A stretch of DNA of 40,222 nt, from UHGV virus genome UHGV-0123874; one strand, written 5' to 3'. A program made the position numbers. Position 1 is the first letter of the stretch, and every line of letters starts with the position of its first letter. This DNA is from a virus. Positions 30,001 through 36,000 of this stretch are shown here, piece after piece.

Positions 30001-33000
30001 TATTTCAAGCATTTCGCTTGCTTGATATTTGCCACCAGAAATCTCTTCGATTTTTGAGGCGTATTTCGTTTTCCCAAAAAACTCAGTCTTAGGGAGGAAG
30101 CCGTTTTTGAGCCACTTATAGACAGCCCTTTCGCTAACTCCACAAGCCTTCGCAACTTCAGGTATGCCGACACCTTTAATCGGCTCATCAAGATTTTGCA
30201 TAGGAATATCCTTTTTCGTACTTTCAGTACGCATTATGATTGAACTGAAAGTTTTTGCAAGTGCTTTAGTATCGTACTCATGGTTCAGAATGAAAAAGTG
30301 CGCAAAGAATTCGCCCAGCGGCTAGCGCAAGCCTGTAAAGAAGCTGGTCTTGATGAACATGGTAGGGGAATGGCTATAGCCCGTGCCCTTTCTCTTTCGT
30401 CCAAAGGCGTTAGCAAATGGTTTAATGCTGAGTCTTTACCGCGTCAGGAAAAAATGAATGCGCTTGCGAAATTTCTAAACGTTGATGTTGTTTGGCTTCA
30501 GCACGGCACTTCGTTAAATGGAGCGAATGATGAAGATACTCTTTCATTTGTTGGCAAATTAAAAAAAGGGTTAGTGCGCGTGGTTGGTGAGGCAATTCTT
30601 GGTGTTGATGGTGCCATCGAGATGACCGAAGAACGCGATGGGTGGCTCAAGATTTATAGCGATGATCCAGATGCCTTTGGTCTTCGTGTGAAAGGAGACA
30701 GCATGTGGCCCAGAATAAAATCAGGAGAATATGTACTCATTGAGCCTAACACCAAAGTATTCCCGGGTGATGAGGTGTTTGTCAGAACCATCGAAGGACA
30801 CAACATGATCAAGATTCTTGGCTATGACAGAGATGGAGAATACCAATTTACAAGCATCAACCAGGACCACAGACCAATAACGTTGCCTTATCATCAAGTA
30901 GCAAAGGTGGAGTATGTGGCTGGTATTCTGAAGCAATCTCGCCATCTGGATGACATCGAGGCAAGGGAGTGGCTGAGAAATTATTAATACCAATAGCATA
31001 GAGACGAAAATGCGACAGGTTTTAGGTACAAATCATAACCCTATCCACAAACAACGTTGTAAATATACACATAAGACTATTGTAAAAAAAGCTCTATCCC
31101 AGTAAATGCGGTTGCAAAATGGGTTGATCGAGCATATATAAGGAGTATAGTTAGTGACCCAAGATGAAACGAATGAATATCTGAAAACCTTAGCATTGGT
31201 TCCAAGTGCAGAGGCCTCCGCAGAGGAGAAGCAGATATATAGCGTCAAAAAGGCTGTAATCGGTCTGATTGAATTTGTTACAACCAGTCTTGAAGAGCTT
31301 GGAATTGAAGGGTTGCATGAGTTAACAAACCCATCTCTTGACGAATTAGATGCAGAGCTAGAGAAACTTGACCAAAAAGCTGATGCAATCAATGAACTAA
31401 ACTTAAAGCAAATCATCATATTTGCACAGATTTTAATCAAAAACATAAGAGAAAAGAATCCTGATTTGTGCTCTGAGGGATCAAAACTGCTCAAGAGTGC
31501 TAAATCGGGTCTTTGATACTTACAGAGCGGAGGATAAACATGTCTAGAACTGAACATATCAAAGATATGCTTAAAAGTGCGGATCGAATCAATCAGATTA
31601 TTGCTGAAATGAAGCAGAGAAAAGCAGAAATGCTAGCATCAAAGCTTCCAATGGCAGCATAACCAAAAACACCCGCTTCGGCGGGTTTTCTTATTCCCCT
31701 AAAAAGATCAAACAACTCCACATTAGCTTTTTTGTGCCCACAGTTTTCTACCTAGCAGTTTTCTTTGCCTCCCGATCCACCATCTAAAAACACATAACCA
31801 ATTGTATTTATTGAAAAATAAATAGATACAACTTGCTAAACCACGCAATTCTGATCCCTGCCGCATAACCTTCATCCGCAACATTTACAAAAATAAATTT
31901 CCTTATATATCAAAATCATATTTCGTAGAGTTAATAAATCATAAACGATTCGTACCAATAGTTCTTGATAATACCGAACTACTGGTTCATTATTATCGCC
32001 ATCAGCAGGACGTTGGAAGCCAAACGGAACAGATTGGCGGGCTCTTTAACTTCGATGGGGCGCTGACAAAGCGCAAACAGATACCAAACGAGATGGGTTT
32101 GGCGGTGATGTGAATTGCAGCAGCAACGACAGCAACCAGAAGATCAGCATCTGGCGCATTACCACCAAAGCCATTTCACATGAGGAAAACATCATGACGG
32201 TAATCGTGTACGGAAAATCAACATTTGCAGGAAATGCCAAAACTCGCCGTCATGAGCGGCGCAGAAAGCTGGCTATCGAGCGTGATTCCATCTGCAACAT
32301 CATCGATTCGATCTTCGGCACAGACAGTGAGGAACCTGTTCAGGAAGCCCCGAGAAAACGTTTAAGTCTTTCTGAAAAAGCAATATCACTCGGCAACATT
32401 CGTAACCAAAATACCGACGAATGCAGTGGAAGTATTTGCCTGCCAAACGTAGCCATTTACTCGGCAGGCTACCGGAAATCCAAACAACTGACAGCGAGGT
32501 AATTATGGATCTAAGTAAATTAGAAAGCTCTTTAGAAGCATCAGTAAAAAATTTTATATCAGTAATTGATGAAAAAACTGAAGATATTAAGAAAGCAACT
32601 ATTGCAGAACTTATTCAAACAAGAGCCAGTACATTTGATCATCTTCCTGATGATGTCCGGTCAGCGGCAATTCGCGTATATGTAACGGCACTAAGCAATA
32701 TTGAACCACCAATTGATGAAGAATCAAGAGATATTCAGAGAAAACGGTTTGAGATGTTAGCCAGCAACATTATCGCGGGTTTTACACAGCTCTTAACAAA
32801 AGAGCCTGCCAGTGAAGCTGTTCGCCAGCAGGCTCAGGTAATGATTAATCAGGCAGAAACTATTTCACGTGAGCGAAAAGAGTTTCGTAAAAGGGTTTCT
32901 GAGCTTCAAGCACCTCAACCGCAGCCGCTGAACCCTCCTTCTCAACAAACTGAATAACTTCATCAAGATGCTTTTTTGCATGTGATGATTGCTCAGGTGG

Positions 33001-36000
33001 CATAGCAGAAACAATCGAAATGATTGCTTGCTGGAGCGCGAGGTTTTCAGTGCTCAGTTTTGAAACTCTGTCGTTTAAATCCTCAATGATTTTAACAAGA
33101 GATACATCTGACATGTGAACTCCTTCTTTTGACTGTGGAAACAACAGTCTACCCATTTCCTTTGACTGTGGAAAGTGAAGGAACCACCGAGCCTGATGTG
33201 GTTAAAAGACAGGCACAATCTTTACTACCGCAATCCACTATTTAAGGTGATATATGGAAGAAGAATTTGAAGAGTTCGAAGAGCATCCGCAGGATGTGAT
33301 GGAACAATACCAGGACTATCCTTATGACTACGACTATTGATAAAAATCAATGGTGTGGACAATTCAAGCGATGCAATGGATGCAAGCTGCAATCGGAATG
33401 CATGGTTAAGCCTGAAGAAATGTTTCCTGTAATGGAGGATGGGAAATATGTCGATAAATGGGCAATACGAACGACGGCAATGATTGCCAGAGAACTTGGT
33501 AAACAGAATAACAAGGCTGCCTGACGGTGGCCTTTATTTTTGGCATAAACAACAGAGGCTAACATGGAATTTAAAGGTACTGAAGGTAAGTGGGAAATAA
33601 TGATGGATGGCGATGAGATTAAAATCATCCAGGCAGACTCACTTGAAAATGGCGCAGGCTGGCGTTCGTATATTGCAATCTGTGAGGAAGTTCAATGCAT
33701 TGAAGATGCCAATCTAATAGCGGCAGCACCTGACCTTCTCGAAGCACTTCAGTTATTACTTAAGCAAACCAAAAATAGAACAACGACAACATATCCAGAA
33801 TGGTATGGAGCTGTTAATAAAGGTCTCACAGCAATCAGAAAAGCCATAGGTGATGAGTAATGAATAAGAAATACATCGTTGAAGTTATAGAGCGAGAAAC
33901 GAAAGAAGTAATTAAACATTTCGAATTTGATAATTATAGAAAAGCTGACCGCGTAGAAGAAGGATTGTTGCGACAAAGTAATCTCGAAAAATTTGATGTT
34001 GTCATGCGATGCGAATAAGCGCCTATAGCAGATTTACGAGTCTGCTATGTGAGCAATGTCGCTCGTAACTAAACAGGAGCCGACTTGTTCTGATTATTGG
34101 AAATCTTCTTTGCCCTCCAGTGTGAGGGCCTTTTTATATGCATACCAATAACGCTTCACTCGAGGCGTTTTCGTTATGCAATCAAAAAGAAGGAGCATCC
34201 TATGCAACAGTTCGCTATTGCAGGGGCGGCATCGGTTCGCCCTTTCAACCCGATTTTATCGGTACAGCATTCACGAAAAAATATTTTAACCGGAGCAGAC
34301 TTTAAACAACCAAGAATGAAAAGTTTGCTCGAAAAGCTTTGGGATATTTTGAAACAACAAGGCCGTCCATGAGTTTTACAGATAACTGGTCAGACGAAGA
34401 ATTCATTCGTCATATGAAAGAATTAATCGGTAACGAAGGAGATATTCATGTCACTTGCAACCACAGTGAAGGAGAGCAAGTTACAGAGACGCATGTACAC
34501 GCAGAAAGCTCTCTGGTATCGCCATAATGGCGACCGCGAAGGAATGCGGGTATGCCTTAATTTGTCCCGAGTCGAAGTATTAAATCAGCGTTATTTTCTT
34601 GGGCCGTGTCCATTCTGAGATCAAACATATGAGCAAAGAATTTTATGCAAGGCTGGCAGCCATTCAGGGGAATCTGAACGCGCCAAAGAATCAGTACAAC
34701 TCATTCGGTAAATATAAATACAGAAGCTGCGAGGACATTCTTGAAGGCGTTAAGCCGTTACTGAATGGCCTGTTTTTATCAATCAGCGATGAAGTTGTGT
34801 TGATTGGTGATCGGTATTACGTGAAAGCAACGGCAACTATTACTGATGGCGAAAACAGTCATACAGCAACCGCTCTTGCACGAGAGGAAGAAAGCAAGAA
34901 AGGAATGGATTCTGCACAAGTTACGGGAGCTACAAGCTCTTATGCACGCAAGTATTGCCTCAATGGTTTGTTCGGCATTGATGATGCGAAAGATGCAGAT
35001 ACCGACGAGCATAAACATCAGCAGAACGCAGCAGCAAAGCAATCAAAACCATCACCTACACCTGAACAGGTTCTAAAAGCATTCACTGACGCAGCATTGC
35101 AGAAAAACACCGTGGAAGAGCTTAAACAGGCGTTCGCCAAAGCGTGGAAGATGCTCGAAGGCACACCGGAGCAGCACAAAGCGCAGGACGTTTACAACAT
35201 CAGACGAGACGAATTAGAAGGAGCAGCTGCTTAATGGCACATTCGATTACTGTAAGACTAAACAAGCCCGCAAGAGAGTTTCAGGCCGGGGAAAATATCG
35301 GATTCAACATCCGTGCTGGCGTTCAGTATTACGATCGCCAGACAAAAAAGAAAGAATGGACAAACTACAGCGCCGTTGTATTTGCCAAGCCGGGAGCGCA
35401 AGCGGATTACTACCGTAGTGTTCTTGTTGAAGGTGGCATTGTTGAAATTACCGGAGAAAACATCAGGGTTGATATTTATCAGGGGCAAAATGGTCAATCA
35501 ATCACTCTTGAATTACTGAATGCAAAGATTGGATTTGCAGCTTCAGGAAATGGCCAGCAGCAGCAAAGTAGTAACCAGCAGAACACTCCTGTATACGACG
35601 ATTCCATCCCATTCTGATTCAGAAAAATAAGGATTTAATCATGCCAGCGCCTCTGTATGGTGCGGACGACCCGCGCAACTGCTCCGGTAGCTCCAAGGCG
35701 GAGGTGCTGGAAAATATCAAAAACATTTTCGACACGTTTATTGATCTGCCACCAGAAACAAAAGCAGAACGGATGTTCCGACGCGATATACAACTCGCGT
35801 TAAAACAGGAGAAGGACCGAACAAACGAAACAGCAATGAGACCGTTGCGAAAAGCGACAATAGACAAATTCCCTGAATATATCGACCCGCGCCTGCGTAA
35901 TTACCGCTCACGCTATGGCGCTATCAGTAATGACTGAGGAATTTACCATGAGAGGACTTGCATACAATCCCGGCATTCTTCCGGCAGAAATGATTATTCG

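What the first reader, a model, noticed from the sequence alone, without database searches (positions are those of the whole stretch)
32860..33180. Convergent overlapping gene inside the early-left operon with a duplicated 14-mer in its leader
An 84-aa ORF with a near-consensus SD lies on the minus strand, antisense to the N-led plus-strand operon, and overlaps the 3' end of the preceding plus-strand gene by about 98 bp. Its leader contains two copies of TTTGACTGTGGAAA (plus-strand coordinates about 33127..33140 and 33165..33178), the second overlapping the SD. Antisense genes inside PL operons are unusual and are often lysogen-expressed exclusion or regulatory genes.
Basis: seen in the sequence. 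Interest (0 to 1): 0.5.

Follow-up and report, generated by a model that had tools for sequence, protein, structure and literature searches.

The report
Small prophage gene in sieB slot
The minus-strand 84-codon ORF is a real but uncharacterised small prophage gene sitting where phages lambda and P22 keep their exclusion gene sieB, and its duplicated 14-mer belongs to a widely shared, portable promoter cassette that drives many unrelated small genes in related prophages.

Summary
The ORF (33114..32860, minus), its AAGGAG ribosome site and the 98-bp overlap are real. The 14-mer repeat is real but lies at 33128-33141 and 33161-33174, and neither copy overlaps the ribosome site.

- **Gene:** ORF84 is under purifying selection. 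It keeps its length down to 30% identity and also occurs without the plus-strand partner. It has its own terminator.
- **Overlap:** it arises because a 99-codon plus-strand gene reads on into the cassette. That tail shows no protein-level constraint.
- **Position:** an antisense gene here is not unusual. Lambda and P22 sieB lie at the same place, antisense between N/24 and ral.
- **Promoter:** the region upstream of ORF84 is homologous to the mapped P22 sieB promoter. The distal 14-mer holds the -35 (TTTCCA), TAGACT is the -10, and the proximal 14-mer starts the transcript.
- **Cassette:** a scan anchored on the distal box alone found the second box 33 nt away in 96 of 98 distinct sequences. 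These sit ahead of at least 15 unrelated small cargo genes, so the boxes belong to the promoter, not to ORF84.

Unknown: what ORF84 does (three helices, no relatives by sequence or fold) and why the box is duplicated.

The parts
32060..32074 (+). nutL boxB (P22 type), marks the plus strand as the PL operon
   Evidence: Exact GCGCTGACAAAGCGC; it lies just upstream of the N-like gene.
32194..32502 (+). N-like antiterminator gene (P22 gene 24 type)
   Evidence: Pfam N_peptide 1.5e-39 over residues 29-130 of the 32110 ORF. PGAP annotates the same start in a related prophage.
32505..32783 (+). Conserved core (about 93 codons) of the plus-strand gene. It exists elsewhere as a 99-codon gene.
   Evidence: Homologues of 99 aa end AGFAKLTCC* and share only this part. 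Pooled pN/pS 0.27.
32784..32957 (+). Read-on tail of the plus-strand ORF, running through the ORF84 terminator and the 3' end of ORF84. Probably not a selected coding sequence.
   Evidence: Stops at variable positions give 138, 150 and other lengths. pN/pS in this frame is 1.06-2.0 in the overlap, pooled 1.32.
32795..32835 (-). Intrinsic terminator of ORF84: stem 32835..32802, then TTTTGTT 32801..32795
   Evidence: -22.2 kcal/mol, z -3.16. Found 25 nt after the stop. Kept with compensatory and G.U changes in the 69%-identity loci L004 and L016.
32860..33114 (-). ORF84, a small three-helix protein of unknown function
   Evidence: 12 homologue clusters, all 84 aa. pN/pS 0.14-0.86 outside the overlap (five of six comparisons <=0.30) and 0.28-0.51 inside it. 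Profile relatives of 79-87 aa. AF2 pLDDT 90.2.
33120..33125 (-). Shine-Dalgarno AAGGAG, 5 nt from the ATG
   Evidence: Read from the sequence; AAGGA is conserved across cassettes.
33128..33141 (-). Proximal box TTTCCACAGTCAAA. The predicted transcript starts within its first bases (about 33139).
   Evidence: It aligns with the second ACCCCTACAG of P22, whose first base is the mapped sieB RNA start, 29727.
33146..33151 (-). -10 hexamer TAGACT
   Evidence: Aligns with P22 TAAACT, the last 6 nt of the annotated sieB promoter. The final T is invariant in 96/96 cassettes.
33161..33174 (-). Distal box TTTCCACAGTCAAA. Its first six bases TTTCCA (33174..33169) are the -35, 17 nt from the -10.
   Evidence: The 19-mer CTTTCCACAGnCAAAGGAA is nearly invariant across cassettes.
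33183..33215 (-). Two interleaved dyads upstream of the -35. On the minus strand: a = GCCTG/CAGGC and b = AACCAC/GTGGTT.
   Evidence: Shared with lambda and P22. Many compensatory variants. Native versus chimeric pairing 95%/79% versus 35%/36%.
33324..33524 (+). ral, the next PL gene. Homology to lambda (98%) starts at 33181.

Best explanation
ORF84 is the cargo of a self-contained accessory-gene cassette (a 'moron'). The cassette sits antisense in the PL operon, in the slot where lambda and P22 carry sieB.

How it is built and read:
- The cassette runs from about 33215 to 32795 on the minus strand.
- It is read from a sigma-70 promoter homologous to the P22/lambda sieB promoter.
- The distal 14-mer supplies the -35 (TTTCCA), TAGACT is the -10, and transcription starts at about 33139, in the first bases of the proximal 14-mer.
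- This gives a leader of about 25 nt with AAGGAG, then the 84-codon gene, then its own hairpin-plus-U terminator.

Inferred, not shown:
- Like sieB, it is made in the lysogen, when PL is repressed. It is damped after induction by strong convergent PL transcription.
- The product, a soluble three-helix protein, most likely serves the prophage or host, for instance by interfering with other phages.

The 14-mers belong to the promoter cassette, not to ORF84. Two copies 33 nt apart bracket the -10. The most likely reason is that one factor binds both, but that factor is unknown.
For: Gene is real:
- 12 homologue clusters are all exactly 84 aa at 69-99% identity. Profile relatives of 79-87 aa go down to 30%.
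- pN/pS is 0.14-0.30 outside the overlap in five of six comparisons (0.86, on four substitutions, in the near-identical L012) and 0.28-0.51 inside it.
- In L004 it lies next to N with no plus-strand partner.
- PGAP calls it in strain PEC41.

Terminator: -22.2 kcal/mol followed by UUUUGUU, kept with compensatory changes.

Slot:
- Lambda sieB and P22 sieB are antisense between N/24 and ral.
- 87 of 93 cassette loci with recognisable markers have N and cI downstream on the opposite strand and cIII, kil or ral upstream.
- ORF84 loci show the same order with different immunity regions.

Promoter:
- Sequence is identical to lambda up to window 33181, then diverged but alignable.
- TAGACT aligns with the P22 TAAACT of the annotated sieB promoter 29690-29720. 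The P22 RNA start, 29727, is the first base of its second box.
- P22 sieB is stated to be expressed from the prophage (abstract of PMC10883804).

Boxes belong to the cassette:
- The same upstream sequence, identical up to the ribosome site, precedes an unrelated 60-codon gene.
- It also precedes at least 15 unrelated cargo families.
- 96 of 98 unbiased hits keep the second box at exactly 33 nt.
- The sieB-type allele keeps its own second box, ACCCCTACAG, in the same way.
Against: - No transcript or protein data exist for this element. The promoter is inferred by homology and scores only 8 of 12 against the sigma-70 consensus, so the simple promoter scan did not list it.
- The 19 nearly invariant bases over the -35 and spacer are far more than a sigma-70 promoter needs, so something else acts there.
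- The covarying dyads upstream show G.U pairs on the cargo strand (31 versus 3). This would fit a transcript that starts further upstream than predicted.
- ORF84 has no detectable relative of known function by Pfam, PHROGs, PADLOC, PDB or BFVD. It lacks the membrane character and Pfam signature of SieB. Its role is guessed from position only.
Confidence: 0.7

Rival explanations
1. The two boxes are operators for one trans-acting regulator, host or phage encoded. It binds both copies, brackets the -10 and switches the cassette off or on. This refines the main explanation rather than competing with it.
For: - The 19-mer over the -35 and spacer is nearly invariant while the flanks vary.
- The second copy sits at a fixed 33 nt in 96/98 hits.
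- The one variable base agrees between copies in 91 of 96 (68 T/T, 23 A/A).
- The sieB-type allele has a different box but the same two-copy layout, with a 34-nt period, while box position relative to the -10 shifts 2-3 nt.
- The distal box contains the dyad TTTCC-N9-GGAAA.
Against: - No candidate protein exists. The cargo cannot be the binder because cargos are unrelated.
- The motif occurs nowhere else in the window.
- It does not fit the LexA (spacing 7, not 8), CII (TTGC-N6-TTGC), FNR, CRP or PhoB consensus sequences, which I recalled from memory.
- Agreement of two bases 33 nt apart can be plain linkage.
Confidence: 0.35
2. The duplication has no separate function. The distal box is just the -35 and spacer of a good promoter, and the proximal box is a conserved initial transcribed or leader sequence. 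Both are preserved because the cassette spreads as a unit by recombination.
For: - Cassette identity ends exactly at the ribosome site, where cargos are swapped, as expected for a recombination anchor.
- The promoter-like positions are the most conserved.
Against: - Two independent box sequences (TTTCCACAG... and ACCCCTACAG) are each duplicated at the same two places. This is hard to get without selection for two matching copies.
- Flanking bases vary freely while the boxes do not.
Confidence: 0.25
3. ORF84 and the tail of the plus-strand ORF (or the separate 58-68-codon PL-sense ORF seen in other loci) form a true overlapping convergent gene pair, for instance a toxin-antitoxin-like couple.
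For: - The PL-sense frame is open across the terminator and the ORF84 3' end in three divergent lineages.
- In L004 and L016 it has its own GAGGG-N-ATG start.
- K-12 e14 ymfI and ymfJ overlap in the same way by 63 nt.
Against: - pN/pS in that frame is 1.06-2.0 in the overlap, against 0.28-0.51 for ORF84.
- Stop positions vary.
- By eye, most differences between L004 and L016 in the non-overlapping part change the amino acid (sequences).
- Gene callers did not call it in L004.
- Its apparent conservation is explained by the terminator hairpin and by ORF84.
Confidence: 0.1
4. ORF84 is not translated. The conserved unit is an antisense RNA that regulates the PL transcript.
For: It is antisense to PL. 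P22 has a 105-nt antisense RNA (sas) in this very locus.
Against: - Substitutions are biased to third codon positions (37 of 63 variable sites outside the overlap).
- pN/pS is low and length is fixed at 84 codons down to 38% identity.
- A strong ribosome site sits at the right distance.
- A confident three-helix fold comes from a 14-sequence alignment.
Confidence: 0.04

Closest known systems
sieB of phages P22 and lambda (superinfection exclusion B; Ranade and Poteete 1993, cited in PMC3224144)
   Same: - Same slot, between N/24 and ral, and same antisense orientation.
- Homologous upstream region: shared dyads, aligned -10, two boxes flanking the -10.
- A single small gene transcribed against PL.
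   Different: - The protein is unrelated: no Pfam SieB hit, 84 aa soluble versus about 190 aa.
- The box sequence differs: TTTCCACAGTCAAA versus ACCCCTACAG.
- No sign of an in-frame Esc-like second product or a sas-type antisense promoter was looked for or found.
Morons of lambdoid phages (autonomous promoter-gene-terminator units such as lambda bor and lom, and the HK97 morons; from my own knowledge)
   Same: - Own promoter (inferred) and own terminator.
- Present in some related prophages and absent from others.
- Placed between genes of a phage operon.
   Different: Here many unrelated cargos share one conserved promoter cassette at one fixed slot. Classical morons each bring their own signals.
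ymfI of the E. coli K-12 e14 prophage
   Same: - Antisense gene in the early-left-like operon, convergent with ymfJ and overlapping its 3' end by 63 nt.
- The same dyad element lies just upstream.
   Different: - A different protein (113 aa, no Pfam hit).
- The region between the dyads and the ATG is short. It has TATGCT directly after the dyads and only one box-like CACACAG.
CII/C1-activated antisense promoters of lambdoid phages (paQ, P22 a23 and aI)
   Same: Antisense promoters inside phage operons with a poor -35 and repeats around it (P22 features).
   Different: The boxes are not TTGC-N6-TTGC. One box is at +1, not both around the -35. sieB-type promoters work in the lysogen without CII.

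Membership tests
sieB-type prophage locus (position, orientation, promoter) | Gene antisense to PL, between the N-type antiterminator and ral/cIII | tested here: met
   Window map; lambda and P22 maps; 87 of 93 cassette loci with markers fit.
sieB-type prophage locus (position, orientation, promoter) | Upstream region homologous to the mapped P22 sieB promoter and RNA start | tested here: met
   Identical to lambda up to 33181, then an aligned -10 and two boxes in the same places.
sieB-type prophage locus (position, orientation, promoter) | Transcribed in the lysogen from its own promoter | not testable with these tools
   No expression data. Inferred from P22 (abstract of PMC10883804; features).
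SieB protein family (Pfam PF14163) | Protein matches the SieB profile | tested here: not met
   ORF84 has no SieB hit, whereas lambda sieB scores 1e-29. ORF84 is not a SieB.
SieB protein family (Pfam PF14163) | Aborts growth of superinfecting phages | not testable with these tools
   Needs plating assays.
Moron (autonomous accessory unit in a prophage) | Own terminator directly after the gene | tested here: met
   Hairpin of -22.2 kcal/mol plus UUUUGUU, conserved.
Moron (autonomous accessory unit in a prophage) | Present or absent among otherwise related phages, with sharp homology boundaries | tested here: met
   Boundaries at about 32784 and 33181. Only 13 of 5426 E. coli genomes match the segment. 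Other cargos occupy the same slot.
Overlapping convergent gene pair | Both reading frames under purifying selection in the overlap | tested here: not met
   ORF84 frame 0.28-0.51; plus-strand frame 1.06-2.0 with variable stops.
Known anti-phage defence proteins (PADLOC) and phage protein families (PHROGs) | Profile match | tested here: not met
   No PADLOC hit. Only a 0.004 hit to an unknown-function PHROG. No tblastn hit in 50,697 phage records.
Known RNA families (Rfam 15) | Covariance-model match in 32000-34000 | tested here: not met
   Only two chance-level snoRNA hits, E 1.6 and 2.3.

The most novel reading that the evidence does not exclude
The dyads, the twin boxes and the ribosome site form a dedicated, portable expression platform of lambdoid prophages, a fixed 'socket' antisense in PL into which unrelated small genes are swapped. 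In this reading the platform has its own regulator that reads the two boxes. The covarying dyad structure acts as a strand-specific nucleic-acid element: an insulator or terminator, or even a structure-specific recombination site that mediates cargo exchange, loosely like integron attC sites. The tandem cassettes in L166 would fit this.
Probability: 0.15. Interest if true: 0.8.

Novelty: new variant of a known kind. Interest (0 to 1): 0.5.

Why it matters
- **A pool of untested genes.** The sieB slot turns out to be a general socket for small prophage-expressed genes. At least 15 unrelated families of 28-136 aa, almost all uncharacterised, share one conserved promoter cassette. That is a ready-made list of candidate exclusion, defence or host-modifying proteins. 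One shared promoter also gives a simple way to find more: scan for the boxes.
- **Two unexplained control elements.** The twin boxes and the covarying dyads are conserved signals with no known reader, in one of the best-studied regulatory regions in biology.
- **An easy test system.** A related arrangement exists in E. coli K-12 (e14 ymfI/ymfJ), so experiments are straightforward.

Tried and rejected
- **Leader hairpin hiding the ribosome site (UUCC with GGAG):** -1.1 kcal/mol, no better than shuffles. Rejected.
- **Hairpin between the -10 flank (GACTGT) and the proximal box (ACAGTC):** present in the window, but absent in cassettes with TATGTT or TAATTT -10 regions. Rejected.
- **Upstream in-frame ATG at 33156 (98-codon version):** lies inside the promoter and is absent in L004 and L016. 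Rejected.
- **Autoregulation by ORF84:** the same boxes precede unrelated cargos. Rejected.
- **Plus-strand promoters using TTGACT in the boxes:** no -10 at the right distance, judged by reading the sequence. Rejected.
- **Consensus checks from memory.** LexA box (CTGT-N7-ACAG, wrong spacing and not conserved), CII, FNR, CRP, PhoB, the marbox, and sigma-E, -32, -54 and -28: none fits. DnaA-box-like 8/9 matches exist, but the bases are not conserved.
- **Rfam:** nothing.
- **Protein function:** Pfam gave only sub-threshold coiled-coil-type hits. PHROGs, PADLOC, tblastn against phages, Foldseek against PDB (two models) and BFVD gave nothing below E 0.17. AFDB50 was not available.
- **Literature:** the Ranade and Poteete 1993 paper is not held. 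No held paper contains the box sequences, apart from an incidental lambda match.
- **Single-sequence folding of the dyad region:** unremarkable, z about -0.6. Support for the dyads comes only from covariation.

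
Full report
**Observation**

The minus strand carries an 84-codon ORF, with ATG at 33114..33112 and stop at 32862..32860. AAGGAG (33125..33120) lies 5 nt before the ATG.

The plus strand is a PL-type operon:
- an exact P22-type nutL boxB at 32060-32074;
- an N-like gene at 32194..32502 (Pfam N_peptide 1.5e-39);
- a 150-codon ORF at 32505..32957;
- ral at 33324..33524 (Pfam Ral 1.6e-48);
- an S24-type repressor upstream and ERF downstream.

The convergent ORFs overlap by 98 bp. TTTGACTGTGGAAA occurs twice, at 33128-33141 and 33161-33174. 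The match extends to 18 nt with a 33-nt period. Neither copy overlaps the ribosome site. It is the only exact 14-mer pair within 100 nt in the window, and only 4 of 300 Markov simulations gave any such pair.

**ORF84 is a gene**

- Twelve homologue clusters are all exactly 84 aa at 69-99% identity.
- A profile search adds relatives of 79-87 aa down to about 30% identity.
- Outside the overlap, 37 of 63 variable sites are third codon positions. pN/pS there is 0.14-0.30 in five of six comparisons; the sixth (L012, nearly identical, four substitutions) gives 0.86. Inside the overlap it is 0.28-0.51.
- In the most divergent locus, L004, the gene lies next to an N-like gene with no 150-codon partner.
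- PGAP annotates it in strain PEC41.
- It is rare. The segment matches 13 of 5426 complete E. coli genomes. There is no tblastn hit in 50,697 phage records. It also occurs in E. albertii and Trabulsiella prophages.

**The overlap is one-sided**

Homologues of the plus-strand ORF come as 99, 138 and 150 aa. They share only the first ~93 residues. The 99-aa forms end AGFAKLTCC*.

| Part of the plus-strand ORF | Pooled pN/pS |
|---|---|
| Core | 0.27 |
| Tail inside the overlap | 1.32 |

Pairwise values in the overlap are 1.06-2.0, with stops at different places. So a 99-codon PL gene lost its stop where the cassette joins, at about 32784, and now reads through it.

One caveat remains. In L004, L016 and L007 a separate 58-68-codon PL-sense ORF with its own GAGGG..ATG covers the same stretch. 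I see no selection on it, but I cannot exclude it.

**Terminator**

A hairpin lies 25 nt after the ORF84 stop on the minus strand (32835..32802, -22.2 kcal/mol, z -3.16). It is followed by UUUUGUU. It is kept in L004 and L016 through compensatory and G.U changes that pair only on this strand.

**The slot and the promoter are those of sieB**

Lambda sieB (34482..35036, Pfam SieB 1e-29) is antisense between N and ral. P22 sieB (29758..30336) is antisense between 24 and ral. Its record annotates a promoter at 29690-29720 and an RNA start at 29727.

The window is 98% identical to lambda from ral up to 33181, which is 52 nt before the lambda sieB start. Beyond that point the sequences diverge but still align:
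- window TAGACT (33151..33146) aligns with P22 TAAACT;
- lambda and P22 carry their own direct repeat, ACCCCTACAG, once over the -35 region and once beginning exactly at the mapped RNA start.

By homology the window promoter reads as follows. The -35 is TTTCCA (33174..33169), the first six bases of the distal 14-mer. A 17-nt spacer follows, then the -10 TAGACT. The start is at about 33139, inside the first bases of the proximal 14-mer. The match to the sigma-70 consensus is 8 of 12, which is why the simple scan missed it. P22 sieB is stated to be expressed from the prophage (PMC10883804 abstract).

**The boxes belong to a portable cassette**

In prophages with the 99-codon gene, the same upstream sequence precedes an unrelated 60-codon gene. 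It is identical through both boxes up to the ribosome site.

A scan of IMG/VR with a pattern covering both boxes found 38 contigs with seven unrelated cargos. I then ran an unbiased scan that specified only the distal box and the TA of the -10. Results:
- 96 of 98 distinct sequences carry TCCACAG[T/A]CA exactly 33 nt downstream; the other two look like chance hits;
- the last T of the -10 is invariant;
- the 19-mer CTTTCCACAGnCAAAGGAA is nearly invariant while the flanks vary.

Eighty-two distinct cargo proteins fall into 15 unrelated families of 28-136 aa. One just passes the Pfam GhoS threshold, and several have zinc-ribbon motifs.

In 87 of 93 loci with recognisable markers, N and cI lie downstream on the opposite strand and cIII, kil or ral lie upstream. 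ORF84 relatives at 35-38% identity still sit behind the cassette.

The sieB-type allele behaves the same way. There are 44 distinct sequences, almost all with the second ACCCCTACAG. They have several -10 variants and several cargos, including non-SieB proteins.

**Why two boxes?**

Shown:
- two different box sequences are each duplicated at the same two places;
- the box-to-box distance is kept at 33 or 34 nt, while box position relative to the -10 shifts 2-3 nt between alleles;
- the single variable base agrees between copies in 91 of 96 cassettes.

Inferred: one factor reads both copies and brackets the -10.

Not shown: any such factor. The cargo is excluded as the binder. The motif is unique in the window. 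None of the binding-site consensus sequences I could recall fits.

RNA-level explanations fail. The leader hairpin is worth -1.1 kcal/mol. The -10/box hairpin is not conserved.

**Dyads upstream**

Directly 5' of the -35 lie two interleaved dyads, a (GCCTG/CAGGC) and b (AACCAC/GTGGTT), at 33183-33215. They are shared with lambda, P22 and 1741 of 5426 E. coli genomes, including K-12 e14.

Across 85 distinct upstream sequences both stems change in a compensatory way. Examples are GCCGGG/CCCGGC, GCTGGG/CCCAGC, AACCCTC/GAGGGTT, AACCCGC/GCGGGTT and AACCATGC/GCATGGTT.

| Stem | Native sequences with 5+ Watson-Crick pairs | Chimeras with 5+ pairs |
|---|---|---|
| a | 95% | 35% |
| b | 79% | 36% |

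This control ignores relatedness between sequences. Non-canonical pairs are 31 G.T against 3 A.C, which points to the cargo-sense strand. Stem b followed by UUUCC looks like a weak terminator, perhaps an insulator against read-through. This is a guess. It sits oddly with a transcript that starts downstream of the dyads.

**The protein**

With a 14-sequence alignment, AlphaFold gives three helices (2-37, 40-60, 63-79) at pLDDT 90.2. Foldseek against PDB and BFVD finds nothing below E 0.17. There is no Pfam, PHROG or PADLOC family. Function is therefore inferred from the slot only: a prophage-expressed accessory protein, possibly acting against other phages.

**Verdict**

The arrangement itself is the known sieB arrangement with a new cargo.

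What appears undescribed is that this promoter, with its twin boxes and covarying dyads, is a conserved socket for many unrelated small genes. I found no description in the papers I could search.

Noticed in passing
window 33183-33215 (minus strand); also L003, L017, L165 and more than 85 cassette loci: Two interleaved dyads (a GCCTG/CAGGC, b AACCAC/GTGGTT) sit just upstream of the -35. They have many compensatory variants and 31 G.T versus 3 A.C non-canonical pairs. The element is present in 1741 of 5426 E. coli genomes. Its function is unknown; it could be an insulator or terminator, a pseudoknot or alternative hairpins.
   Followed up: partly
L018-L022, L023-L156 (IMG/VR and assembly loci): At least 15 unrelated families of small ORFs (28-136 aa) sit behind the same twin-box promoter in the same antisense slot of lambdoid prophages. 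One family just passes the Pfam GhoS threshold, several have zinc-ribbon motifs, and one is a 32-aa proline-rich peptide.
   Followed up: partly
L165 1440-1915 (E. coli K-12 e14 prophage): ymfI is antisense in the e14 early-left-like operon and overlaps the 3' end of ymfJ by 63 nt. The same dyad element lies upstream, followed directly by TATGCT and a single box-like CACACAG. This offers a K-12 model for the arrangement.
   Followed up: partly
L166 1990-3255 (Rac-like prophage): Two cassettes lie in tandem on one strand. The first has the dyads, then TATGCT, then a 163-aa gene (no Pfam hit). The second has the dyads, the twin boxes and a 38%-identity ORF84 homologue.
   Followed up: no
L004 595-690, L016 3158-3334, L007 980-1186: A 58-68-codon PL-sense ORF with its own GAGGG..ATG runs across the ORF84 terminator and the ORF84 3' end. 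In the window the same frame is fused to the 99-codon gene. There is no sign of selection on it, but it is not excluded.
   Followed up: partly
window 32542-32592 and 32689-32739: A 51-nt direct repeat at 71% identity, 147 nt apart, lies inside the conserved core of the plus-strand gene. It suggests an internal duplication in that protein.
   Followed up: no
window 31154-31516 (+): A 120-codon ORF with no Pfam hit lies between the repressor gene and PL, where lambda carries rexAB. PGAP annotates a 126-aa hypothetical protein there in related prophages. It is another candidate prophage-expressed gene.
   Followed up: no
phage records versus IMG/VR: The TTTCCACAG-type cassette is found in only 1 of 50,697 sequenced phage records (Salmonella phage MS2 LVA) but in more than 120 prophage-derived contigs. 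The ACCCCTACAG (sieB) type is common in both.
   Followed up: no
loci, sequences listed: In a few sieB-type cassettes the second box and the cargo are replaced by CACCCCCTTATTTTGTCAGGGGG, a hairpin, with no ORF behind it. These look like emptied sockets.
   Followed up: no
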